Assembly (NCBI GenBank): GCA_022769785.1
Contig: JALEIY010000129.1
Location: forward strand, 1-53,115
Length of the DNA: 53,115 nucleotides
Source: Eubacterium sp.
GTDB taxonomy: Bacteria > Bacillota > Clostridia > Lachnospirales > Lachnospiraceae
Direction: 5' to 3'
In this document: positions 8,397-20,854 of the stretch, piece by piece
How the letters are laid out: the number at the start of each line of letters is the position of its first letter
Numbering within the stretch: position 1 is the first letter of the stretch
The notes under the pieces: generated by a model
What the model saw: only the letters and a program-made list of their open reading frames with translations
Databases searched by the model: none
What the model was told of the DNA's origin: nothing
Position numbers and translations under genes: made by a program

Positions 8397-9161
8397 ATGT
8401 TAAAAATCGCAATTTACGGAAAAGGCGGTATCGGGAAATCAACTGTCACTGCCAATCTGGCAGCGGCTTTTGCTAGCTTGGGTAAAAAAGTCATACAGAT
8501 TGGCTGTGATCCGAAAGCAGACTCTACCATTAATCTGCTTGGGGGAGAAACACCGATTCCCGTGATGAACTATTTAAGAGAATATGATGAGGCCCCGGAG
8601 ACCATAGAGGAGATTTCCAAAATCGGCTATGGCGGGGTGCTCTGTATTGAGACCGGAGGGCCGACACCGGGTCTTGGATGCGCCGGAAGAGGAATTATTG
8701 CTACCTTCCAGCTTCTGGAGGATATGGAACTTTTTGAGACAAGGAATCCGGATGTTGTGCTTTATGATGTGCTGGGGGATGTGGTTTGCGGCGGATTTGC
8801 TGCTCCGATTCGGGAAGGATATGCCAGTCAGGTTCTTATTGTGACCTCCGGGGAGAAGATGGCTCTTTATGCGGCGGATAATATTAATAAAGCAGTGAAG
8901 AATTTTGAGGACCGAAGCTATGCAAGAGTATACGGCATCGTTTTAAACCATAGAAATGTTGACCGGGAAAGGGAAAAGGTCGAGCAGTTTGCTCACAGTG
9001 CAGGACTCCCCATTGTAGGAGAGATACCGCGAAGTGATGAGATTACCTGTTACGAAGACAGGGGAATGACTGTCGTAGAAGGGAATCCCGATTCGGAGGT
9101 CAGCCGTGCATTTTTGTCTCTGGCAGAAGAATTGCTGACATTGGAGGAGGAAAAAGAATGA
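8397..9161 (+). CDS. Nitrogenase iron protein-like ATP-dependent reductase (NifH/FrxC/CfbC family), copy 1
   Basis: [23 protein letters not shown] (Cys97 equivalent) and DVVCGGF (Cys132 equivalent). Confidence 0.96.
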
Positions 9162-10483
9162 CAGACTGCATAAACAGGAAAGAAGCATTTTCCCTGACCG
9201 CAGAGGAACTGGTGAAGAAAGGAAAAGAAGGGATTCCGGAGGAGATGATTACCGGAAAGCATCTGATTTACAGTTCTCCGGCTACGCTTGCCTACAATTC
9301 ACCGGGGGCTCAGGGCTTTGGGGTAAAAAGAGCCGGTCTGGCGATTCCGGGGTCTGTCATGCTGTTGGTAGCTCCGGGATGCTGTGGAAGGAATACTACG
9401 ATATTAAGTGAGCTGGGTGGATACAGTGACCGTTTTTTCTACCTGCTCATGGATGAGACGGATATTGTTACCGGGAGACATTTAAAAAAGATTCCACAGG
9501 CGGTAGAGGAGATATACGATTCTCTGGATGAGAAACCATCGGTGGTGATGATTTGTATAACCTGCGTGGACGCGCTTCTCGGGACGGATATGGAAAGAAT
9601 CTGCCGAAAAGCGGAGGAAAAAGCCGGGATTCCGGTTTTGCCATGCTATATGTATGCCCTGACAAGGGAGGGAAGGAAGCCGCCTATGGTTCATGTGCGG
9701 CAGTCCATTTATTCATTGCTGCGCCCAAGAAAGAAAAAAAGCACTTCTGTGAACCTGCTTGGATATTTTGCACCACTGATTGAGGATTGTGAGCTTTATG
9801 TGTTGCTAAGACAGATTGGAATTAAAACTGTCCGGGAAATATCCCGATGTGCATCATTTGAGGAATACCTGGATATGGCAGAGGCAAACTTTAATCTTGT
9901 GCTTCATCCGGAAGCACGGTATGCGGCTGCCGATATCAGAAAGCGGCTGGGGATTCCATCCATTGAGCTGCGGCGGCTTTATCAGATTGATAAAATCAGG
10001 AATCAGTATGCTCTTTTTGCTGCAGCACTCGGATATGAGATGGATGACAGTGTTTATTATAAAGAGACAGAAGATGCCATTGCAGCATTCCGGGAGCGAT
10101 ATCCTTCAGTTACTTTTGCCATCGGTGAGGGATGTAATGCCAATGCATTTGAGCTGTCGCTGGCACTTCTGCGTTATGGGTTTGCTGTCTCGGAGATTTT
10201 TGCCTCTGTCGGTGAAGAAGATTTTATTTATCTGGAGAAAATCGCTGCACTGAGTCCGCATACGAGGGTTTATTCTAATCTGGAGCCGACGATGCTTTAT
10301 TATGACTGTCAGGAGTGTCCTGCAGATATTACCATCGGAAAGGATGCGGCTTATTATCATCCGGATGCGGTTCACCTTGAGTGGAGTGATGATATACAGC
10401 CTTTCGGATATGCGGGGGTCAGACATTTTTTCACAGAATGTGAAAAAGTCTTACGGTCTGCTGCCGGAAAGGGGGATGAATGA
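9158..10483 (+). CDS. Nitrogenase component-1-like protein, D/E/BchN-type subunit, copy 1
   Basis: [33 protein letters not shown] and ANFNLVL match the nitrogenase oxidoreductase fold. ATGA-coupled to nifH-like. Confidence 0.88.
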
Positions 10484-11544
10484 TGAAAGGACTGAGAAAA
10501 TTTATTGCACCTTTTGCTCCGGACCAGTCCGGTGCGGCAGCGGTGTTTTGTGAACTGGGAGGACTTGTGATTATCCTGGATGCCGGCGGATGTGCGGGGA
10601 ATATCTGTGGTTTTGATGAACCACGGTGGTTTACCAGCCGAAGTGCAATCTTCAGTGCCGGGCTTCGGGATATGGATGCGATTCTGGGAAGAGATGACAG
10701 GCTGGTTGAAAAGATTTCCAAAGCCTGTAAAAAGGTAAACGGACATTTTGTGGCAGTGATTGGCACGCCGGTTCCGGCGGTCATCGGAACAGATTATCGG
10801 GCACTGGCAAGGATGATTGAAAAAAAGACCGGTCTTCCTGCGGTTGCCATTGACACCAACGGTATGGAGCTTTATGACACAGGAGTGCAAAAAGCACAGA
10901 AGGTATTGTTTGAAGTTTTTACCGGGGAAGAAAAAGAGGGACAGAGCCGGGAGGAAAAACGTCTGGGTATTCTTGGAGCAACACCGATGGATTTTTCCGG
11001 CGATATGGATAAGCTGACGGCATATTACCGCGAAAAAGGCTGGGATAAAATTACCTGTTATGGTATGGGGGCAGGACTTGCGGAAGTAAAATCAGCTTCC
11101 TGCGAAGGGAAAAATATCGTCATTGCTCCTGCCGGTCTGGCGGCCGCACGTTATCTTGAAAAGAAATATGGCATCCCTTATGAAACGGATTATCCGGTGG
11201 AAATTTTATCGGAATGGAAAGAAATTTGTGACTGTATGCCGCAGTGGAAAGGGAAAAAGATATTGATTGTCCATCAGCAGATTCTTGCCAATGCACTTCG
11301 GGATAAACTGGAAAAGATACCGGGAACCATGGTGGATGTAGCCTCATGGTTTATGATGGAAAAACAATGGAAAAGAGAACAGGATGTGCATTTAAAGGAA
11401 GAAGAGCAGTGGAATGAACTGGTAAAAGAGCGGGAGTATGACGTCGTAATAGGCGACAGTCTGTTTCAGAGAGGACTTTCGGGATTTGCCGGTCAGTATG
11501 TGAAACTGCCGCATTTTGCAGTTTCCGGAAAGAGGAGCGAATGA
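10480..11544 (+). CDS. Nitrogenase component-1-like protein, K/N/BchB-type subunit, copy 1
   Basis: DAGGCAG, LRDMDAILG, GTPVPAVIGTD, GILGATP and AARYLEKKYGIPY motifs; ATGA-coupled. Confidence 0.87.
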   Translation: MMKGLRKFIAPFAPDQSGAAAVFCELGGLVIILDAGGCAGNICGFDEPRWFTSRSAIFSAGLRDMDAILGRDDRLVEKISKACKKVNGHFVAVIGTPVPAVIGTDYRALARMIEKKTGLPAVAIDTNGMELYDTGVQKAQKVLFEVFTGEEKEGQSREEKRLGILGATPMDFSGDMDKLTAYYREKGWDKITCYGMGAGLAEVKSASCEGKNIVIAPAGLAAARYLEKKYGIPYETDYPVEILSEWKEICDCMPQWKGKKILIVHQQILANALRDKLEKIPGTMVDVASWFMMEKQWKREQDVHLKEEEQWNELVKEREYDVVIGDSLFQRGLSGFAGQYVKLPHFAVSGKRSE

Positions 11545-13925
11545 AAAAAAGTAAAACGGTTCGAATCCGTGTATTTGGAATAGTACAGGGAGTAGGATTC
11601 CGTCCGACCGTAAGCCGTCATGCAGTGGCATCCCACATTAAAGGGAGCGTCTGCAATAAAGGCTCCTTTGTGGAGATATGGGCACAGGGAACCAAAGAAG
11701 ATATTGATGTTTTTTGCAGGAAGATTCAGAAGGAACCTCCGCAAAGAGCGGTGATCATGAAGATTTCGATTGAGGAAAGGCAGACGGGATTTACGGATTT
11801 TACGGATTTTTCTATTATAGAAAGTGAAAAAAAGAGGGGAGATATTTTTGTTTCTCCGGACATTGGAATCTGCCCCCAGTGTAAAAAAGAACTATATGAC
11901 CGGAATGACCGGAGATACCTGCATCCCTTTATTAATTGTACCTGCTGCGGGCCGAGACTGACGATTCTTGATGCCATGCCTTATGACAGGGAAAGAACCA
12001 GTATGGCCGAGTTTCCGATGTGTCCTTCCTGTGAATGGGAATATACCCACGCAGAAACGAGACGATTTGATGCACAGCCGGTCTGCTGCAATGAATGCGG
12101 ACCTGAGGTATATGTGATTGGAAAAAATATCAGGGGGCCGGAAGCACTCCGTTACGTTCGAAAACTTCTTCGGGATGGAGGGATTGCAGCCATCAAGGGA
12201 ATTGGCGGTTTTCATCTTTGCTGTGATGCCCTTAATGAAAAGACCGTTGCAAGACTGCGGAAAAGCAAAGGGCGCCCGGCAAAGCCTTTTGCGGTAATGA
12301 TGAAAGATATGGATACCGTGAGAAGGGAATGTGAATGCGACGAAGTGAGGCAGGAGCTTCTGGAAGGGTACCAGAAACCGATTCTGCTTCTGGAAAAAAA
12401 GGAGGGGGGAAGGCTTTCCTCTCTGGTTGCACCGGGTAACCCAAAGGTTGGAGTGATGCTTCCTTATGCGCCCCTTCATCATCTTTTATTTGATTACTGT
12501 GATGATACGTCAGTTTCAGATTGTCTGGTTATGACCAGTGCCAATAATTCCGGAGCACCGATTTGCCGGGACGACGAAGATGCAATAGCGGAACTTGGCG
12601 GACTTTGCGATGTAATATTATCCCATAATCGCCTGATTCGCCTTCGGGCGGATGATACAGTGATGGACTTTTTCAGAGACAGGCCGTATATGATTCGACG
12701 TTCCCGAGGATATGCACCGCTTCCGTTTGCGTTGGAGAGAGAATGGAAAGGGGAAGTTTTGGCCATGGGAGGTGAACTGAAAAACACCTTCTGTGTTGGC
12801 AAAAACAGTTTGTTTTATCCCTCTCCTTATATCGGAGACATGAGTGATGTCCGGACGGTTAAGGCACTCGATGAATCGGTGAAGCGGATGACAGGGCTTC
12901 TTGAAGCAAAGCCGGAGGTGGTGGCCTGCGACCTGCATCCGGCATATAATACCTCTGCGCTGGCAGAAAGTATGGGACTTCCTATGATGAAGATTCAGCA
13001 TCATTATGCGCATATTTTATCCTGTATGGCGGAAAACGAATACCCTGGTCCGGTTATTGGTGTTTCCTTTGACGGAACCGGATATGGTACGGATCAAACA
13101 ATATGGGGCGGTGAGTTTCTGGTGTCGGATTATGATGGGTTTTCCCGGGAAGCTTCCGTGCAGTCATTTGTGCAGGTGGGAGGAGATCTGGCGGCAAAAG
13201 AGGGCTGGAGAGTGGCGGTTTCTCTCCTGAAGGCAGTTTATGGAGAAGAAGAAACGCTTCAACTTTCTGAGAAATGGGAACTGTGTACCAGACAGGAGGC
13301 CAGTGTATTATGTAAAATGGCGGACAGAGGAATAAACAGTATCGTTTCTACCAGTGCCGGTCGGCTTTTTGATGCAGTCAGTGCGCTCCTTGGAATTTGC
13401 CGTTTTTCCACTTTTGAGGGAGAGGCTTCAATATCCCTGCAATTTGCGGCACAGGCTTTTGAGAAAAAAGTGTTCCGCAGTGGCGAAGGGAATTTGGGAA
13501 TGCCGGAGGACTGGGATGAAAAAATGCTTTTGACGATTTCTGAAAAAGAAGAAGCAGAACAAAGAAGCTTCTTTCTGAATACTACCGGGCTGTTTTCGTG
13601 GATTGCAGAGCAGAAAAAACAGGGAAAGGCAAGCGAAGAATTAAGCTATGCTTTTCACCGTATTCTGGCTGAGATGATTGTGCAGGGCTGTATCCGTATC
13701 AGAGAAGAGACCAGGATTACGACAGCGGCATTAAGCGGTGGAGTGTTTCAGAATACACTGCTGCTTCGATTATGTGTGAACCGACTGGAAGAAGAGAATT
13801 TTCATATTCTGATACACCACCTGATTCCGCCGAATGACGGAGGAATCTGTCTTGGTCAGGCAGTGGCCGCCATGAATCAATTGCAAAAGAAATATAAGAA
13901 AGAGGGAGAAAATAAATGTGTGTAG
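11541..13925 (+). CDS. hypF: Carbamoyltransferase HypF
   Basis: Acylphosphatase GIVQGVGFRP, two Zn-fingers (CPQC..CTCCGPR; CPSC..CNECGP), KGIGGFHL, QHHYAH, DGTGYG and PPNDGG motifs. Confidence 0.98.
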   Translation: MKKSKTVRIRVFGIVQGVGFRPTVSRHAVASHIKGSVCNKGSFVEIWAQGTKEDIDVFCRKIQKEPPQRAVIMKISIEERQTGFTDFTDFSIIESEKKRGDIFVSPDIGICPQCKKELYDRNDRRYLHPFINCTCCGPRLTILDAMPYDRERTSMAEFPMCPSCEWEYTHAETRRFDAQPVCCNECGPEVYVIGKNIRGPEALRYVRKLLRDGGIAAIKGIGGFHLCCDALNEKTVARLRKSKGRPAKPFAVMMKDMDTVRRECECDEVRQELLEGYQKPILLLEKKEGGRLSSLVAPGNPKVGVMLPYAPLHHLLFDYCDDTSVSDCLVMTSANNSGAPICRDDEDAIAELGGLCDVILSHNRLIRLRADDTVMDFFRDRPYMIRRSRGYAPLPFALEREWKGEVLAMGGELKNTFCVGKNSLFYPSPYIGDMSDVRTVKALDESVKRMTGLLEAKPEVVACDLHPAYNTSALAESMGLPMMKIQHHYAHILSCMAENEYPGPVIGVSFDGTGYGTDQTIWGGEFLVSDYDGFSREASVQSFVQVGGDLAAKEGWRVAVSLLKAVYGEEETLQLSEKWELCTRQEASVLCKMADRGINSIVSTSAGRLFDAVSALLGICRFSTFEGEASISLQFAAQAFEKKVFRSGEGNLGMPEDWDEKMLLTISEKEEAEQRSFFLNTTGLFSWIAEQKKQGKASEELSYAFHRILAEMIVQGCIRIREETRITTAALSGGVFQNTLLLRLCVNRLEEENFHILIHHLIPPNDGGICLGQAVAAMNQLQKKYKKEGENKCV

Positions 13926-14116
13926 GTTTACCAGCAAGAATTGTGACGATGAAAGACGGGATGGCTGTTGTGGATGCTTCCGGCGCGAAAAGAGAGATAT
14001 CCACAGAGCTGATTGAGAATCTGGAGCCGGGAGACTATGTAATGGTTCATGCCGGTATTGCAATCGCCAAAATACAGGAGGAAGAAACAGAAGAAGAGCT
14101 GGAGGAGAAACCATGA
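13916..14116 (+). CDS. hypC: Hydrogenase maturation chaperone HypC
   Basis: N-terminal MCVGLP (Cys2) and GDYVMVHAG. Confidence 0.97.
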   Translation: MCVGLPARIVTMKDGMAVVDASGAKREISTELIENLEPGDYVMVHAGIAIAKIQEEETEEELEEKP

Positions 14117-15168
14117 AGAAAAATATGGAAGAGTTAAAGAACCGTATCATGGCTTATGAAGGACCTCCGGTTCGCATTATGGAGGTCTGCGGGACTCATA
14201 CTCATGAGATTTTTCGCCTCGGAATCCGGAAATTGCTTCCAAAGCAGGTAGAATTGATATCCGGACCCGGCTGTCCGGTCTGTGTCACCCCGGCGGATTA
14301 TATTGATGAAGCTATATGGCTGGCATTAGAGAAAAAGATAACGATTTGTACCTTTGGAGATTTGGTTCGTGTGCCGGGAACTGAGAAAAGTCTTTCAGAT
14401 GCCCGGGCAGAAGGGGCAAAAATACAGATTGTCTATTCCCCAACCGATGCTGCAGATTATGCGAAGAAACATCAGGATGAAGAAGTTGTCTTCTTATCGG
14501 TAGGGTTTGAGACGACAACACCGGCTGCCTGCATTTCATTGAAAATGGCAGAAAAAGAAGGTCTGAAAAATTATTCATTGCTGACGGCGAATAAAACTAT
14601 GCCACAGGCTTATGAAGCACTGAAAGGAAGTGCAGATGTATTCCTTTATCCGGGGCATGTAAATGCGATTACCGGCACGGCTCTTTGTGAAGAACTGGTT
14701 GAAAAGGGAATCAGCGGTGTTGTGGCAGGCTTTGAGGCAGAAGATCTTCTGGAAGCTTTTGCGGTGATTTTAGACCGGTATCCTAAAGGAGAACCTTTTT
14801 TTGTCAATGCATATAAAAGAGTTGTGACAAAAGAAGGAAGCGTACCGGCTGCAAAGCTGGTGGCACAGTGGATGGAAGCCTGTGACAGCGAGTGGAGAGG
14901 ACTTGGAGTCATAAAGGGTTCAGGGCTCAGAATATGTCATCATCCATCGATGTTTGACGCGAGAATAAAATACCAGATTCCAAAGCCGGAAGCAAAGAGC
15001 AACCCGGTCTGCCGCTGCGGAGAGGTGCTGCAGGGGAAATGTCGACCGACGGATTGTCCTGTTTTTGGAACAGCCTGTACACCGCTTCATCCGGTCGGAG
15101 CCTGTATGGTATCGGGAGAAGGAGCCTGTTCAGCATATTATCAATACGGAGGAGAAATCAATGACTGA
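14113..15168 (+). CDS. hypD: Hydrogenase maturation scaffold HypD
   Basis: CGTHTH, GPGCPVC, GFETT, PGHV and C-terminal Fe-S Cys motif CRC..CPVFGTAC..GACMVSGEGAC. Confidence 0.98.
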   Translation: MKKNMEELKNRIMAYEGPPVRIMEVCGTHTHEIFRLGIRKLLPKQVELISGPGCPVCVTPADYIDEAIWLALEKKITICTFGDLVRVPGTEKSLSDARAEGAKIQIVYSPTDAADYAKKHQDEEVVFLSVGFETTTPAACISLKMAEKEGLKNYSLLTANKTMPQAYEALKGSADVFLYPGHVNAITGTALCEELVEKGISGVVAGFEAEDLLEAFAVILDRYPKGEPFFVNAYKRVVTKEGSVPAAKLVAQWMEACDSEWRGLGVIKGSGLRICHHPSMFDARIKYQIPKPEAKSNPVCRCGEVLQGKCRPTDCPVFGTACTPLHPVGACMVSGEGACSAYYQYGGEIND

Positions 15169-16165
15169 GACAGTAACATTGGCACACGGAGCGGGAGGAC
15201 AGCAGACCTCCGAGCTGATTGAACATATTTTTAAGAAACATTTTGAAAATCCGGAGCTGACCGGAGATGATGCGGCTGTTTTGCAGATGGAAGCGGGAAG
15301 ACTTGCCTTTACTACGGATGGTTTTATTGTTTCACCAGCGGAGTTTCCGGGAGGAAATATCGGCAAGCTCAGTATTTGCGGAACGGTAAATGATTTGGCC
15401 TGTATGGGTGCAAAGCCTCTGTATCTCACCTGTGCTTTTGTAATTGAAGAAGGATTTCCGATGGATAAGCTGGAGAAGATTGCACAGTCCATGGAGATTA
15501 CTGCGAAAGAAGCCGGGGTCAGAATTGTGGCAGGAGATACAAAGGTTGCCGGAAAAGGGCAGGTAGACGGAGTATTTATTACGACAACAGGCATAGGCCG
15601 TATTGAGGATGGAGTGTCAACCTCCGGGAAAAATGCCAGACCGGGAGATGTAGTTATCGTCAGCGGAGACGTGGGAAGACATGGATGTACTATTCTCATG
15701 GAAAGAGAAGATTTTGGAATAGAGGCAGAGGTTACCAGTGATTGTGCCCCTCTTTGGGGAACGGTGGAAGCACTTCTTGGTGTGACAAAGGATATTCATG
15801 TGATTCGTGATGCCACAAGGGGCGGTGTGGGAACCGTACTTTATGAGATTGCCGGACAGAGCGGAGTAGGCATCCGGCTAAACAGTGAGGCTATTCCGGT
15901 GCAGGACAATGTAAAAGGAATTTGTGGAATGCTTGGTCTGGAACCGTTGTATCTTGCCTGTGAAGGACGACTGGTGATTGTGGCACCGAAGGAAAAAGCG
16001 GATGACATAATAAAGACACTCCGTACAGGCAAATATTCTGCTGAGGCGGCAGTCATCGGTGAAATTACGGAAGAGATGGCAGGAAGAGTGACAATGGTAA
16101 CCGAAATCGGAGCCCAGACTCTGCTTCCGCAACCGAGAGGAGAACTTTTGCCGAGAATCTGCTGA
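15161..16165 (+). CDS. hypE: Carbamoyl dehydratase HypE
   Basis: HGAGG, GTVNDL, GDTKV and RDATRGG motifs; C-terminal PRIC; RBS GGAGG. Confidence 0.98.
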   Translation: MTETVTLAHGAGGQQTSELIEHIFKKHFENPELTGDDAAVLQMEAGRLAFTTDGFIVSPAEFPGGNIGKLSICGTVNDLACMGAKPLYLTCAFVIEEGFPMDKLEKIAQSMEITAKEAGVRIVAGDTKVAGKGQVDGVFITTTGIGRIEDGVSTSGKNARPGDVVIVSGDVGRHGCTILMEREDFGIEAEVTSDCAPLWGTVEALLGVTKDIHVIRDATRGGVGTVLYEIAGQSGVGIRLNSEAIPVQDNVKGICGMLGLEPLYLACEGRLVIVAPKEKADDIIKTLRTGKYSAEAAVIGEITEEMAGRVTMVTEIGAQTLLPQPRGELLPRIC

Positions 16166-16250: not shown

Positions 16251-16496
16251 ATGGAGACAAGAATTGCCGTTCTATCCATTATTGTGGAGGATAAGGAGCA
16301 GACGGCGCAGTTAAATGATATGATTCATGAATATTCGGAATATGTGGTAGGAAGAATGGGTATTCCCTATCGGGAAAAAGGTATCAGCATTATCAGCCTG
16401 GTGATGGACGCTCCACAAAATGTCATCAGTACACTTTCCGGTCGAATTGGCCGTCTCAGGGGAGTGACATCAAGGGCAACTTACGCAAAGGTTTAA
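16251..16496 (+). CDS. TM1266-family small ACT-like protein ('iron-only hydrogenase system regulator')
   Basis: 81 aa with RIAVLSIIVED..LN..HEY..VGRMGIPYREKG..IISL..LSGRIGRL; RBS GGGGAGG. Confidence 0.85.
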   Translation: METRIAVLSIIVEDKEQTAQLNDMIHEYSEYVVGRMGIPYREKGISIISLVMDAPQNVISTLSGRIGRLRGVTSRATYAKV

Positions 16497-16515: not shown

Positions 16516-17295
16516 ATGATAAAAATTGCAGTGTACGGAAAAGGAGGAATCGGAAAATCCACTACGGTTTCCAATGTGGCGGCAGCCATGGCACAGCAGG
16601 GGCTTAAGGTAATGCAGATTGGATGCGATCCCAAAGCCGATTCCACTGTACTCCTTCGTCATGGAAATCCAATCAGCACGGTGCTTGATTTAGTTCGAAC
16701 CAGACGAAATGATTTTACCCTTGAGGATATGGTTACGGAAGGGTTTGCCGGGGTGCTTTGTGTTGAGGCGGGCGGACCGGCTCCGGGAATGGGCTGTGCC
16801 GGGCGGGGAATCATTGCGGCTCTGGAGAAATTAAAGGAAAAAGGCGCATATGATGTTTATCGTCCGGATGTCATAATCTATGATGTTTTAGGGGATGTGG
16901 TTTGTGGAGGATTTTCCATGCCAATGAGAGGAGGATATGCCGACAGCGTATTTGTGTTGACTTCCGGAGAAAATATGGCCATTTATGCGGCGGCAAATAT
17001 TGCCACAGCGGTAAATAATTTTAGCGGCCGGGGATACGCAAAGCTGGGAGGGCTGATATTAAACCGTAAAAATGTAAAACGGGAAGAAGAGAAGGTACAG
17101 GAACTGGCAGAAGATATTCACAGTGAAGTTATTTCCCGACTTTCTTACAGTACACTGGTTACGGACGCGGAAGAACGTAAAATGACGGTTATGGAAGCGT
17201 GGCCGGACAGTGAAATGGCGATGGAATACCGCAGTCTTGCAGAAAAGATTCTTTCTGTATGCAGCCGGGATATCGGAGGTGACGACCATGCTTGA
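16516..17295 (+). CDS. Nitrogenase iron protein-like reductase, copy 2
   Basis: [23 protein letters not shown] and DVVCGGF; RBS AGGAGG. Confidence 0.96.
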   Translation: MIKIAVYGKGGIGKSTTVSNVAAAMAQQGLKVMQIGCDPKADSTVLLRHGNPISTVLDLVRTRRNDFTLEDMVTEGFAGVLCVEAGGPAPGMGCAGRGIIAALEKLKEKGAYDVYRPDVIIYDVLGDVVCGGFSMPMRGGYADSVFVLTSGENMAIYAAANIATAVNNFSGRGYAKLGGLILNRKNVKREEEKVQELAEDIHSEVISRLSYSTLVTDAEERKMTVMEAWPDSEMAMEYRSLAEKILSVCSRDIGGDDHA

Positions 17296-18622
17296 GCTGC
17301 TTCATGGAAGTTCTCCGGTACAGTGTGAAAATGAAAGAATACGGATGGGAGATGCAGCGTGGCCTGCACCTTTTCTTCCGGGTCTGGAATATAACAGTCC
17401 CGCTCACGGCACCTGGAATATTGTGCACACAGGTATGCTGATACCGGATTCCCATCAGATTTATGTGTGTGCAGCAAACTGCAACAGAGGAGTTATCCTT
17501 ACGGCAGCGGAAATGAATGCGGTGGATCGTTTTTCTTCCATTGTGATACAGGAAGAGAATCTGATTAATGGGGATATGGAAGAACTGGTCATAGAAGGAG
17601 TGACAGAGATTCTTCTGAAATTAGAGAGAAAGCCATCGGTAGTTCTTCTGTTTACAGTATGTATCCATCATTTTATGGGGTGCGATTTGGGGTATATATA
17701 CAGTACTCTCAGGGAAAGATTCCCAGGTCAGTGCTTTGTGGATTGTTATATGGATCCGATTATGCAAAAAGGAGGAATGACACCGGATGAAAAACTTCGG
17801 ATACGTCTATATGCTCCTCTTGTGAAAAGAAAGAAAAATCGTAGGCAGATTAATATCATTGGGAATGACCTCCCGACCGACCCGGATAGTGATATCCTTG
17901 CTTTTATAAAAGAATCCGGATATGAAGTAAAAGATATTACATCCTGTAATGACTTTGAAGAATATCTTTCCATGGCAGAAAGCTTTTTGAATATTACCAG
18001 TTATCCTTCAGCTAAAAAGGGGGGAGATATTTTATCGAAGCGACTGGAAATGGAACATCTTTATATGCCTCAGTCTTTTTCTTATGAAGAGTTGGACGCT
18101 CAGTTTTTCCGGTTAGCGGATATTCTTGGAACGAATCCCCCGGAAACAGCCCAATTAAAAAAGAAATGTGAGATGTCTTTGGAAAAAGCAAAAGAACAGA
18201 TAGGGGATACCAGGATATCAATTGATGCATCGGCAGTTCCGAGAATTTTAGGACTGACCAGACTTCTTCTTTCCCATGGCTTTCGGGTGTTTCGAATATA
18301 CACGGACGGTTTTTCTCCGGAAGAAGAAGGCGATTATCACTGGCTGCGTGAACATTATCCGGATTTGGAGGTGTGCGCGACAATTCATCCCGGAATGAGG
18401 ATATTTCCACGGAAATCCCAAGAAAAGATTCTTGCAATAGGACAAAAAGCAGCCTATTTCAGCCAGACACCTTATTTTGTAAATATGGTGGAGGGGGGAG
18501 GTCTATTTGGATATTCCGCGATTTGTCGTCTGGCGGAGCGGATGTGTGAGGCCTTTTTTGAGGAAAAAGATACAAAAGATTTGATAGTACGAAAGGGATT
18601 GGGGTGTGAGAGCTGTATATGA
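17288..18622 (+). CDS. Nitrogenase component-1-like protein, D/E/BchN-type subunit, copy 2
   Basis: YNSP, VCAANCNRG, IQEENLING, TVCIHHFMGCD and INIIGN motifs. ATG 17288 follows GGAGG and overlaps the nifH-like stop. Confidence 0.88.
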   Translation: MLELLHGSSPVQCENERIRMGDAAWPAPFLPGLEYNSPAHGTWNIVHTGMLIPDSHQIYVCAANCNRGVILTAAEMNAVDRFSSIVIQEENLINGDMEELVIEGVTEILLKLERKPSVVLLFTVCIHHFMGCDLGYIYSTLRERFPGQCFVDCYMDPIMQKGGMTPDEKLRIRLYAPLVKRKKNRRQINIIGNDLPTDPDSDILAFIKESGYEVKDITSCNDFEEYLSMAESFLNITSYPSAKKGGDILSKRLEMEHLYMPQSFSYEELDAQFFRLADILGTNPPETAQLKKKCEMSLEKAKEQIGDTRISIDASAVPRILGLTRLLLSHGFRVFRIYTDGFSPEEEGDYHWLREHYPDLEVCATIHPGMRIFPRKSQEKILAIGQKAAYFSQTPYFVNMVEGGGLFGYSAICRLAERMCEAFFEEKDTKDLIVRKGLGCESCI

Positions 18623-19803
18623 AGCAGGTATCCGTAAGAATTTCCACATACACGGCAGATGTATCCGGTGTGTGTTCGGCTCTTTATGAGTTGGGGGGAA
18701 TGGTAGTGATTCACGACCCTTCCGGATGTAATTCAACCTATAATACACACGATGAGCCAAGATGGTATGAACAGGACAGTCTGGTGTTTATTTCCGGATT
18801 ATCGGAGATGGATGCCATCATGGGAGATGATGAAAAACTGATTCGGGATATAGTCCGTGCGGTGAAACAATTTGCTCCGCGTTTTATTGCACTTGTGCGT
18901 ACACCGGTGCCGCTGATGATAGGAACGGATTTTGAGGCAATCAGTAAAATAATTGAACAGGAAACCGGGATTCCGGTATTTTATTTTGGAACAACCGGAA
19001 TGCGTTCCTATGTAAAAGGGGTGGAAGAAGCACTTGCTGTTGTGGCGAAACATATGGTAAAGGATGCCAGCCGGTGCATTCCGGAAAAAAAACGGGTGAA
19101 TCTGCTGGGGGTAACCCCTCTGGATTTTTCGGTAAATAAAACGATGGAATCGGTAAAACAATATTTGTGGCAAAACGGATGGGAAATCGTGAGTTGTTTT
19201 GCAATGGGAAGCAGCACAGAAGAACTGTCCGATGCAGGAAATGTCTGTGTGAATCTGGTGCTGTCCGCTTCCGGTCTTGCTGCGGCACGGGTTTTAAAGC
19301 AGCGTTTTGGAATTCCATATGTGGTCGGTTTGCCTTCCGGGGACTTTGGGAAAAAAGTCCTTGATGATTTAAACAAAAGTGCTGCCGATGGAAAAGACCG
19401 GGTGTCGTATTTTTCCTCGGAAGAAATAAACCCGGGAAAAAGAGAGGATGAGAATAGAAAGGTATATTTTATAGGAGAAACGGTGATTTCGAGGTCATTG
19501 GCGGAAACTATGAACATCCGTGAAAAAAGGGAAATTAAGGTGATTTGCCCGTTGGAAACAGACGGAGAACTTCTGGATGAAAAATGTGTTGTAAAATCCG
19601 GTGAAGAAGAGATGAAAGAAGAATTAATGCAGGCGGCAGTCGTCATAGCAGACCCCATGTACCGGCCGATTTGCCCACCGGAATGTCAGTTTATCTCTCT
19701 TCCTCATGAAGCTTTTTCCGGAAGAATTTACCGCAGACAGATTCCGGATTTGACAGAACTGTCCTTTTTATATAGGGAACAGAAAAATTCAGAAAGTTTC
19801 TGA
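18619..19803 (+). CDS. Nitrogenase component-1-like protein, K/N/BchB-type subunit, copy 2
   Basis: HDPSGC, LSEMDAIMGDD, TPVPLMIGTD, VNLLGVTP and FGIPY motifs; ATGA-coupled. Confidence 0.88.
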   Translation: MKQVSVRISTYTADVSGVCSALYELGGMVVIHDPSGCNSTYNTHDEPRWYEQDSLVFISGLSEMDAIMGDDEKLIRDIVRAVKQFAPRFIALVRTPVPLMIGTDFEAISKIIEQETGIPVFYFGTTGMRSYVKGVEEALAVVAKHMVKDASRCIPEKKRVNLLGVTPLDFSVNKTMESVKQYLWQNGWEIVSCFAMGSSTEELSDAGNVCVNLVLSASGLAAARVLKQRFGIPYVVGLPSGDFGKKVLDDLNKSAADGKDRVSYFSSEEINPGKREDENRKVYFIGETVISRSLAETMNIREKREIKVICPLETDGELLDEKCVVKSGEEEMKEELMQAAVVIADPMYRPICPPECQFISLPHEAFSGRIYRRQIPDLTELSFLYREQKNSESF

Positions 19804-19804
19804 A

Positions 19805-20854
19805 ATGAGGAAAGCAATGAATATTATAGAACAATTTATAAATCATCCGGATATGAGCCTCATGGAATATGAGCTTCTTGTGGAACAGGCAGGGAATCCG
19901 GAAGCAGTGAAAAGGCTTCAGGAAGAGGCACTTCGTATCAGAAGGCAATATTATGGTGATAAGGTATATATCAGAGGCTTGATTGAGTTCACAAATTATT
20001 GTAAAAATAACTGTTATTATTGTGGTATCCGAAGAGATAACAAATCTCTTCAGCGCTATCGCCTGACAAAAGAGCAGATTATGGAATGCTGTCAGAATGG
20101 ATATGACTTAGGGTTTCGCACCTTTGTCTTTCAGGGCGGGGAAGACCCATGGTTTACAGAAGACAGAATGGTTTCTCTGGTTCGTTCTGTTCATGAGGCA
20201 TGGCCGGATTGTGCCATTACCCTTTCTGTGGGAGAACTGCCAAAGGAAACCTATCGGGCATTAAAAAAAGCAGGAGCGGACCGATATCTGCTTCGGCATG
20301 AGACTGCCGATAAATCTCATTACGAAAGTCTCCATCCGGAAGGGATGAGCTTTTCAAACCGGATGCAATGCCTTCAGAATCTCAGGGCACTGGGCTATCA
20401 GGTCGGAGCCGGATTTATGGTAGGTTCACCGGGACAAAATAAGTTCCATCTTGCAAAGGAACTGTATTTTCTCAGTCACTTTAAGCCGGATATGGTTGGC
20501 ATAGGGCCTTTTATTCCACACCATAAGACAAGGTATAAAGAGGAACCGGCCGGGGCGGTCTCCATGACCCTGTTTTTATTATCTGTGATTCGTATTTTAC
20601 TTCCCAAAGTATTGCTGCCGGCGACAACGGCATTGGGGACTATAGACCCATACGGCAGAGAAAAGGGGTTATTGGCGGGAGCAAATGTCATAATGCCCAA
20701 TTTATCACCGGAAAAATACAGGAAAAACTATGCTCTCTATGATAACAAAATCTGTATGGGAGAAGAGGCAGCAAAATGTATTCGATGTCTGGAAAAAAGA
20801 GTGGCATCTGTTGGAGCACAGATTGTTGTTGACCGGGGTGACGTATGTAAATAA
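19805..20854 (+). CDS. hydE: HydE-family radical SAM protein ([FeFe]-hydrogenase maturase-like)
   Basis: RGLIEFTNYCKNNCYYC (CX3CX2C), RYLLRHET, GIGPFIPH, LPATTAL, GANVIMPN, YALY and C-terminal CX7CX2C. Confidence 0.88.
   Translation: MRKAMNIIEQFINHPDMSLMEYELLVEQAGNPEAVKRLQEEALRIRRQYYGDKVYIRGLIEFTNYCKNNCYYCGIRRDNKSLQRYRLTKEQIMECCQNGYDLGFRTFVFQGGEDPWFTEDRMVSLVRSVHEAWPDCAITLSVGELPKETYRALKKAGADRYLLRHETADKSHYESLHPEGMSFSNRMQCLQNLRALGYQVGAGFMVGSPGQNKFHLAKELYFLSHFKPDMVGIGPFIPHHKTRYKEEPAGAVSMTLFLLSVIRILLPKVLLPATTALGTIDPYGREKGLLAGANVIMPNLSPEKYRKNYALYDNKICMGEEAAKCIRCLEKRVASVGAQIVVDRGDVCK

What the first reader, a model, noticed from the sequence alone, without database searches (positions are those of the whole stretch)
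19805..20854. hydE without hydG/hydF: could HypCDEF replace HydG as the Fe-CO/CN donor?
Seen: a HydE-like radical SAM protein with CX3CX2C and auxiliary CX7CX2C ends the operon; no hydG, hydF or hydA is in the window. Known: HydE acts on the Fe(CO)2(CN)-cysteinate synthon made by HydG, and HypCD builds a chemically related Fe(CN)2CO unit. Inference (speculative): a hybrid pathway in which a Hyp-made synthon is processed by HydE and delivered to a nitrogenase-fold protein, so HydE would take the radical SAM slot that NifB fills in nif/mar clusters.
Basis: inference. Interest (0 to 1): 0.78.

Follow-up and report, generated by a model that had tools for sequence, protein, structure and literature searches.

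The report
Hydrogenase cofactor route without HydG
This ordinary hydrogenase-helper gene (hydE) ends an operon of cyanide/CO-iron assembly genes and two nitrogenase-like enzymes that occurs in bacteria keeping iron-only hydrogenases but lacking the standard CO/cyanide-making enzyme HydG, so the operon likely builds that enzyme's iron-CO-cyanide active site by an undescribed route, and some relatives likely import the precursor instead.

Summary
In detail: 19805-20854 is an intact HydE. It is no special paralog: it is the genome's only hydE, with hydF and two [FeFe]-hydrogenases elsewhere; no hydG, [NiFe] large subunit, hypA or nifB was found (genome 90% complete). In 200 family genomes, all 13 carrying the nitrogenase-like/hypFCDE cluster have hydE, hydF and hydA but no hydG; 0 of 92 hydG genomes carry it; 0 of 55 further carriers have hydG. 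The second nitrogenase-like module also occurs without hyp, beside hydF and an iron-chelate ABC importer (5 genomes), suggesting precursor uptake. The same gene order exists in Clostridium autoethanogenum; related acetogens are a published 'missing hydG' puzzle. Best reading (0.8): Hyp plus the two modules replace HydG and feed canonical HydE, HydF, HydA; the chemistry is inferred, untested. Possible counterexamples exist (C. drakei, C. scatologenes, G638). The adjacency was noted in 2012; I found no paper proposing HydG replacement. The scan reached this idea before on other genomes.

The parts
8397..9161 (+). NifH-like Fe protein, module 1 (P-loop, Cys95/Cys131, Arg98 invariant)
9158..10483 (+). 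Nitrogenase component-1-like alpha-type subunit NflD1 (invariant Cys75, Cys76, Cys133, Cys136)
10480..11544 (+). Nitrogenase component-1-like beta-type subunit NflK1 (invariant Cys38, Cys43); fused to NflD1 in several relatives
11541..13925 (+). HypF carbamoyltransferase
   Evidence: TIGR00143 755.9 bits, cut-off 466.1
13916..14116 (+). HypC (Cys2 and His45 invariant; acidic tail typical of the cluster type)
14113..15168 (+). HypD scaffold, cluster-specific clade, catalytic motifs intact
15161..16165 (+). HypE with C-terminal PRIC cysteine
16251..16496 (+). TM1266-family iron-only hydrogenase system regulator, normally heading TM1266-hydE-hydG-hydF
16516..17295 (+). NifH-like Fe protein, module 2
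17288..18622 (+). NflD2 (invariant Cys61, Cys65, Cys125; His47, His127 near-invariant); clade shared with ABC-importer loci beside hydF
18619..19803 (+). NflK2 (invariant Cys37; His32, His44)
19805..20854 (+). HydE radical SAM maturase, the genome's only copy (the finding)

Best explanation
The gene is the genome's single canonical HydE, and the operon in front of it (hypFCDE plus two nitrogenase-like NifH/D/K sets) likely replaces HydG as the source of the iron-CO-cyanide unit for the [FeFe]-hydrogenase H-cluster. Proposed steps. (1) HypF/HypE make cyanide from carbamoyl phosphate and HypCD builds Fe(CN)2(CO): known chemistry, motifs shown intact here, activity untested. (2) Module 1, which always travels with hypF, takes the unit from HypC and/or supplies ATP-driven low-potential electrons, giving a stable small Fe-CO-CN complex X: inferred. 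(3) Module 2, which travels with TM1266, hydE and hydF, turns X into HydE's normal substrate, Fe(CO)2(CN)(cysteinate) or an equivalent (one CN out, one CO and cysteine in): inferred. In genomes without hyp, an iron-chelate ABC importer next to module 2 would bring X in from outside: inferred. (4) HydE, then HydF, then HydA as in the standard route: known chemistry, genes shown present. Odds: 0.8 that the operon replaces HydG in H-cluster synthesis; about 0.4 for this exact division of labour.
For: Own genome: one hydE, hydF, group A and group B1 hydrogenases over their cut-offs with H-cluster motifs; best HydG hit is ThiH in a thiamine operon; no [NiFe] large subunit, HypA or NifB found. Family sample of 200 genomes, one per genus: cluster in 13; these have hydF 13 of 13, hydE 13 of 13, hydA 13 of 13, hydG 0 of 13, [NiFe] large subunit 2 of 13, both with a second hyp set. 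Cluster in 0 of 92 hydG genomes and 0 of 86 genomes with neither hydF nor hydG; of 22 genomes with hydF but no hydG, 19 have module 2 and 13 the whole cluster. hydG over cut-off in 0 of 47 further module-1 genomes and 0 of 8 from three other families. One locus holds hydA-nifH1-D1-K1-hypFCDE-TM1266-D2-K2-hydF-hydE in a row (L104); hydE or hydF lies in 16 of 57 cluster loci. In G043 and G007 module 2 sits between hydE and hydF, where hydG normally sits. Cluster HypD forms one clade (59 rows, support 99) apart from 18 [NiFe]-type HypDs. HydF of HydG-less genomes is interleaved with canonical HydF, at least 3 forced changes, so the swap likely happened more than once. C. autoethanogenum has the same ten genes in the same order; NflD1 orthologs are in C. 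ljungdahlii, ragsdalei, coskatii, carboxidivorans, sp. AWRP, the five species in which PMC9431212 found hydE and hydF but no hydG. In the published transposon table the ten genes carry fewer insertions than 78 neighbouring genes, like hydE and hydF and unlike the [NiFe] genes. A synthetic complex B fully replaces HydG in vitro (PMC11256358), so any other source of that complex would suffice.
Against: Most genomes are draft assemblies (own 89.7% complete; completeness of the 47 not given) and related, so p-values overstate. C. drakei and C. scatologenes have an NflD1 ortholog and a HydG candidate in PMC9431212, which also proposes a HydG for C. autoethanogenum and atypical candidates in the others; I could not test those sequences. 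G638 has module 2 with an importer protein and a full hydG. Three genomes have hydF without hydG and without module 2 (G054, G148, G199; G054 also lacks hydE and hydA), and G195 has module 2 without a hydF found. In the transposon table 8 of 10 cluster genes, hydE and hydF are called non-essential in both conditions, and neighbouring genes are not independent. HypCD makes Fe(CN)2CO, not Fe(CO)2CN, and no known nitrogenase-like enzyme swaps such ligands. More distant relatives of both modules sit with the same kind of importer in genomes that have hydG or lack hydF, so the wider family has other uses.
Confidence: 0.8

Rival explanations
1. One reading: HydE processes a Hyp-made synthon and delivers a new metallocofactor to a nitrogenase-fold enzyme, taking the role of NifB; the nitrogenase-like protein is the end client.
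For: Two D/K pairs resemble the enzyme-plus-scaffold layout of nifDK/nifEN; no NifB in the genome; hydE follows nflK2 by one base.
Against: Only hydE of a genome with hydF and two hydA; sequence not distinct from canonical HydE; hydE is in only 9 of 57 cluster loci while hydF is in 12; it does not explain why hydG is missing in 13 of 13, 47 of 47 and 8 of 8 carriers nor why all tested carriers keep hydF; module 2 occurs without hyp.
Confidence: 0.06
2. Same overall role (replacing HydG) but other chemistry: the Hyp proteins supply only cyanide or Fe-CN, and the NifH/NflDK sets act as ATP-driven CO2-to-CO reductases or electron donors to HypD and HydF; HydE may receive free ligands or a different Fe species, and the importer carries plain iron chelates. 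This lies inside the 0.8 of the best explanation.
For: PMC8454700 states that the electron source for CO formation on HypCD is unknown and needs about -530 mV, citing nitrogenase Fe proteins as CO2 reducers. PMC9431212 cites weak HydA activation by HydE plus HydF with free CO or cyanide. The importer is of the generic FecCD/Peripla_BP_2 class.
Against: Does not explain how hyp-less genomes with module 2 and the importer obtain cyanide, nor why two separate, conserved D/K clades are kept.
Confidence: 0.3
3. A divergent HydG (or ThiH) below the profile cut-off does the normal job; the cluster serves an unrelated purpose such as an unrecognised [NiFe] enzyme or metal-chelate processing, and the exclusion reflects shared ancestry.
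For: PMC9431212 proposes atypical radical SAM candidates in acetogens; C. autoethanogenum has [NiFe] genes; sub-cut-off HydG hits of 174-197 bits occur in 7 of 8 phylum carriers and I verified the ThiH identity only in the own genome.
Against: The own genome's only candidate is ThiH by score and operon and G423 has no hit at 1e-40; 11 of 13 carriers have no [NiFe] large subunit; hydE, hydF, hydA and TM1266 are physically joined to the cluster in several lineages; carriers span several families and two phyla.
Confidence: 0.1
4. The nitrogenase-like modules make the aminomethyl (azadithiolate bridge) donor, for example by reducing cyanide, replacing the glycine cleavage system.
For: No GcvH in the own genome; Hyp makes one cyanide more per iron than the H-cluster needs (established stoichiometry).
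Against: GcvH is as rare in hydG genomes (15 of 92) as in carriers (3 of 13), Fisher p 0.69; C. autoethanogenum has both the cluster and glycine cleavage genes.
Confidence: 0.05

Closest known systems
Canonical H-cluster maturation HydG/HydE/HydF (TM1266-hydE-hydG-hydF; review PMC11256358)
   Same: HydE, HydF, TM1266 and HydA present and sequence-normal.
   Different: No HydG; module 2 can occupy hydG's place between hydE and hydF; CO and CN would come from Hyp chemistry or uptake, not tyrosine.
HypCDEF Fe(CN)2CO assembly for [NiFe]-hydrogenases (PMC8454700)
   Same: All four genes over curated cut-offs, catalytic motifs shared with [NiFe]-type Hyp.
   Different: Separate HypD clade; no HypA and no [NiFe] large subunit in this genome; translationally coupled to nitrogenase-like genes; genomes with a [NiFe] enzyme keep a second hyp set.
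Group IV nitrogenase-like proteins, 'red clade' of Dos Santos et al. 2012 (PMC3464626: Coprococcus catus, Dorea longicatena)
   Same: Two linked NifHEN-like copies beside hydrogenase maturation genes, few conserved Cys, no FeMoco ligands; the authors guessed a role in metallocluster assembly.
   Different: That paper names no hydE, does not note the missing hydG, and separates no modules or importer form.
NifEN, MarHDK, CfbCD, DPOR, IsrHDK (review PMC13474568)
   Same: Component-1 fold and an intact NifH partner.
   Different: Only 9-19% identity to the listed solved structures; no NifB; no full P-cluster Cys set; the review has no mention of HypF or HydE.
HydG-less acetogenic clostridia (Di Leonardo et al. 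2022, PMC9431212)
   Same: hydE and hydF without hydG, hypCDEF without hypAB; these species carry NflD1 orthologs.
   Different: The authors treated the two gaps separately, gave no straightforward explanation and did not link them or mention the flanking nitrogenase-like genes in the passages and section read.

Membership tests
HydE ([FeFe]-hydrogenase maturase) | TIGR03956 above cut-off and better than PylB, BioB, HydG, HmdB | tested here: met
   548.6 bits against cut-off 254.6; next best PylB 169
HydE ([FeFe]-hydrogenase maturase) | CX3CX2C radical SAM motif; optional C-terminal CX7CX2C | tested here: met
   C66 and C317 motifs; the second is in 16 of 23 HydEs from hydG genomes and 14 of 17 from cluster genomes
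HydE ([FeFe]-hydrogenase maturase) | Conserved barrel residues shared with canonical HydE | tested here: met
   132 of 151 columns conserved in 23 canonical HydEs are kept, no column diagnostic for 23 HydG-less HydEs; RHET, GIGPFIPH, PATTA, NVIMPN align with T. maritima HydE. A published pocket-residue list was not checked one by one.
HydE ([FeFe]-hydrogenase maturase) | Adenosylates complex B and matures HydA | not testable with these tools
   needs enzyme assay
Canonical HydEFG system | hydF and hydA in the genome | tested here: met
Canonical HydEFG system | hydG in the genome | tested here: not met
   best hit is ThiH; genome 89.7% complete, but the same gap in 13 of 13, 47 of 47 and 8 of 8 carriers
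[NiFe]-hydrogenase maturation (HypABCDEF plus client) | HypCDEF with catalytic motifs | tested here: met
[NiFe]-hydrogenase maturation (HypABCDEF plus client) | HypA and a [NiFe] large subunit | tested here: not met
   neither found in the genome; HypB not searched
Nitrogenase / MAR-type systems with NifB | NifB or MarB in the genome | tested here: not met
   best hit 26 bits against cut-off 343.65
Nitrogenase / MAR-type systems with NifB | Three P-cluster Cys in each subunit and FeMoco Cys/His ligands | tested here: not met
   K subunits have one or two invariant Cys, all invariant D-subunit Cys lie before residue 165, all scores far below nifD/nifE/nifK cut-offs; Nif numbering assigned by recalled motif, not by alignment to a NifD sequence
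Group IV nitrogenase-like proteins (function unknown) | PF00148 fold, NifH-like partner, no FeMoco ligands | tested here: met
   subgroup letter (D, E, F) not assigned

The most novel reading that the evidence does not exclude
Gut and acetogenic anaerobes run a second, HydG-free route to the H-cluster that borrows the [NiFe] Hyp machinery and two nitrogenase-like ATP-driven enzymes, and the iron-CO-cyanide intermediate between the two modules is a diffusible 'organometallic vitamin': producers (hyp plus both modules) release it, and auxotrophs (module 2 plus a TM1266-gated iron-chelate ABC importer beside hydE/hydF) take it up to mature their hydrogenases.
Probability: 0.35. Interest if true: 0.96.

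Novelty: new variant of a known kind. Interest (0 to 1): 0.86.

Why it matters
HydG is treated as indispensable for [FeFe]-hydrogenase maturation, and the two hydrogenase classes are taught as having unrelated cofactor pathways. A Hyp-fed route would join them, give a function to an uncharacterised nitrogenase-like clade (a new reaction type for that fold), and explain a published puzzle: industrial gas-fermenting clostridia with hydE and hydF but no recognisable hydG and with hypCDEF but no hypAB. It is directly testable in genetically tractable C. autoethanogenum or C. ljungdahlii and in the cultured gut bacterium Anaerobutyricum hallii. It bears on engineering hydrogenase expression without HydG and, if the importer form is right, on cofactor cross-feeding in gut hydrogen metabolism.

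Tried and rejected
HydE as dedicated paralog: rejected. The C85 radical SAM gene as HydG: rejected, it is ThiH. Nitrogenase-like modules as replacement of glycine cleavage: no enrichment. Complex prediction NflD1+NflK1+HypC: no answer, used neither for nor against. RNA runs: no RNA holder listed. Promoter and terminator scan: counts at chance level. Fold searches gave only the general component-1 fold, no close solved relative. The 1307-aa ORF around hydF in G094 has no further Pfam domain and was not treated as a fusion. The careful HydE tree did not finish; the quick tree was used, and its starred branches do not exclude one origin for canonical HydEs. hydE was searched in 80 of the 108 hydG-negative genomes only, and not genome-wide in the 92 hydG genomes. 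Literature: ten searches found no paper proposing Hyp or nitrogenase-like proteins as HydG replacement; the library lacks most subscription journals and patents. One search found no paper on hydrogenase activity in A. hallii among the 15 listed.

Full report
Observation. The ORF at 19805-20854 is a 349-aa HydE: TIGR03956 548.6 bits (cut-off 254.6), far above PylB, BioB, HydG and HmdB, with E 8e-92 to T. maritima HydE structures and both Cys motifs. It closes a run of twelve same-strand genes: nifH1-nflD1-nflK1-hypF-hypC-hypD-hypE-TM1266-nifH2-nflD2-nflK2-hydE. Eight of the eleven junctions overlap by 4-10 bases; the others are gaps of 85, 19 and 1. A cytidylate-kinase-like gene follows after 100 bases; no terminator was found.

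The genome. The assembly (2.33 Mb, 89.7% complete) has one hydE, one hydF on another contig, and a group A and a group B1 [FeFe]-hydrogenase with H-cluster motifs. The best HydG hit is ThiH in a thiamine operon. No [NiFe] large subunit, HypA, NifB or GcvH was found. But hydG is not elsewhere, and the hyp genes have no client.

Profile in the family. I searched the same 200 genomes (one per genus, at least 90% complete) for hypD, hydG, hydF, NflD2 and gcvH. hypD is in 29. Mapping those loci split them into 13 genomes with the nitrogenase-linked cluster and 16 with only [NiFe]-type hyp. All 13 have hydF, hydE and hydA, none has hydG, and 11 have no [NiFe] large subunit; the two that do keep a second hyp set beside it. 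hydG is in 92 genomes, 91 of them with hydF; none has the cluster. None of the 86 genomes with neither hydF nor hydG has it. Of 22 genomes with hydF but no hydG, 13 have the cluster and 19 have module 2. Related genomes are not independent, so I rest on pattern, not on p-values.

Wider test. A scan of species genomes with NflD1 gave 47 loci, among them Anaerobutyricum hallii DSM 3353, Faecalicatena contorta, Oscillospiraceae and Coriobacteriia. hypF follows in 43; three of the other four end at a contig edge and one (L092) does not show it. hydG was found in 0 of these 47 genomes (completeness not given). In 400 phylum genomes, 8 have a module-1 ortholog, in three other families; 0 of 8 have hydG over the cut-off, 7 have ThiH-level hits that I did not inspect, and 8 of 8 have hydA. 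One of them (G318) has only hypF in the cluster and two hypD genes elsewhere. In L104 hydA, the cluster, hydF and hydE form one run. Within the stretches fetched, hydE is in 9 and hydF in 12 of 57 cluster loci (a few loci are near-copies).

Two modules and an importer form. NflD1 and NflD2 are 25% identical and form separate clades (support 98 and 100). Module 1 stays with hypF. Module 2 stays with TM1266, hydE and hydF and also occurs without hyp: in G007, G043, G131, G143 and G149 it lies beside hydF with parts of a FecCD/Peripla_BP_2 ABC importer, with hydE adjacent in three. In G043 and G007 it sits between hydE and hydF, the place of hydG in the canonical TM1266-hydE-hydG-hydF operon. In G043 and G143 the importer ATPase carries a fused TM1266 domain, which suggests feedback gating (inference). 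More distant nfl-plus-importer operons occur in genomes with hydG or without hydF, so the wider family is a general import-and-process unit from which these two modules likely arose.

Are the parts intact and are HydE/HydF altered? HypD keeps CGTH, GPGCPVC, GFETT and its C-terminal Cys; HypE keeps PRIC; HypC keeps Cys2 and His45; 59 cluster HypDs form one clade against 18 [NiFe]-type. Both NifH copies keep the P-loop and cluster Cys; the D/K subunits have few invariant Cys. Models are confident (pLDDT 90.6 and 87.8) and match nitrogenase component 1 at 9-19% identity, with no close solved relative. HydE from 23 HydG-less and 23 hydG genomes is interleaved in a quick tree with no diagnostic residue; HydF likewise, with at least three forced label changes and the Fe-S motif in 28 of 28 HydG-less copies. 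Unchanged HydE argues for an unchanged substrate.

Literature. Dos Santos 2012 (PMC3464626; passages and section 11 read) noted two linked NifHEN-like copies beside hydrogenase maturation genes in Coprococcus catus and guessed metallocluster assembly. [quoted passage not shown] NflD1 orthologs of 69-70% identity are named from seven of these species. Woods 2022 (PMC9004356; passages and parts of Table S1) shows the ten-gene order in C. autoethanogenum and no gene described as HydG; the cluster's median insertion index is 0.011 against 0.019 (heterotrophic) and 0.0048 against 0.0105 (CO) for 78 following genes, hydE and hydF are similarly low, and the three [NiFe] genes are near the middle. I saw 88 consecutive rows plus search hits out of about 4000; 8 of the 10 genes, hydE and hydF are called non-essential, so this is weak support. 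A review reports an isolated [FeFe]-hydrogenase complex from this organism (PMC6288185, passages). PMC11256358 (passages) shows synthetic complex B replaces HydG and is HydE's substrate. PMC8454700 (passages) gives the Hyp chemistry and its unknown electron donor. The 2026 review of nitrogenase-like systems (PMC13474568; passages and section 2.4) never mentions HypF or HydE. PMC4022347: passages only. Ten searches found no proposal of HydG replacement; supplements of PMC3464626 and PMC9431212 were not read and may bear on this.

Mechanism. Shown: gene content, linkage, intact motifs, mutual exclusion with hydG. Known: Hyp makes Fe(CN)2CO; HydE needs Fe(CO)2(CN)(cysteinate). Inferred: module 1 receives or reduces the Hyp product to a transferable complex; module 2 converts that complex, home-made or imported, into HydE's substrate; HydF and HydA follow as usual.

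Against. No biochemistry; draft genomes; exceptions G054, G148, G199, G195, G638 and the two clostridia with HydG candidates; the ligand swap has no precedent.

Verdict. The hydE gene is ordinary; the system around it is a likely undescribed route to a known cofactor. Earlier agents of this scan reached the same core idea on other genomes; my reading was written down before that look-up and rests on the tests above. Interest 0.86.

Noticed in passing
L044:1897-10621 (G043), L047:224-8056 (G143), L046:9398-18123 (G131), L043, L049: Module 2 with an iron-chelate ABC importer next to hydF/hydE in genomes with neither hydG nor hypD; the ABC ATPase has a fused TM1266 domain in G043 and G143.
   Followed up: partly
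Family sample: 77 of 92 genomes with hydG have no gcvH found, although the glycine cleavage H-protein is the accepted donor for the H-cluster bridge; the donor in these bacteria is unexplained.
   Followed up: partly
G000:C121:5497-8815 (L010): The group A [FeFe]-hydrogenase gene directly follows an anaerobic CO dehydrogenase catalytic subunit gene; a possible CO source or a CO/H2 redox module.
   Followed up: no
L112-L116, L173-L176: More distant nifH-nflD-nflK operons with the same importer type, some beside CobW/HypB-like GTPases, in genomes with hydG or without hydF: a wider uncharacterised family.
   Followed up: partly
L051:6579-10675 (G199); L048 (G148): hydE and hydF without hydG, hyp or module 2; G199 has TM1266 and an NMT1-type ABC transporter in front of hydF, perhaps a third supply route or an assembly gap.
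   Followed up: partly
L024, L017, L169-L172: NflD1-NflK1 fusions of about 770-890 aa in several carriers.
   Followed up: no
L169 (G318): Cluster with hypF only; two hypD genes lie elsewhere in the complete genome.
   Followed up: partly
window:20955-21542: Cytidylate-kinase-like gene after hydE; in L063 and L073 it follows nflK2 directly, with no hydE between.
   Followed up: no
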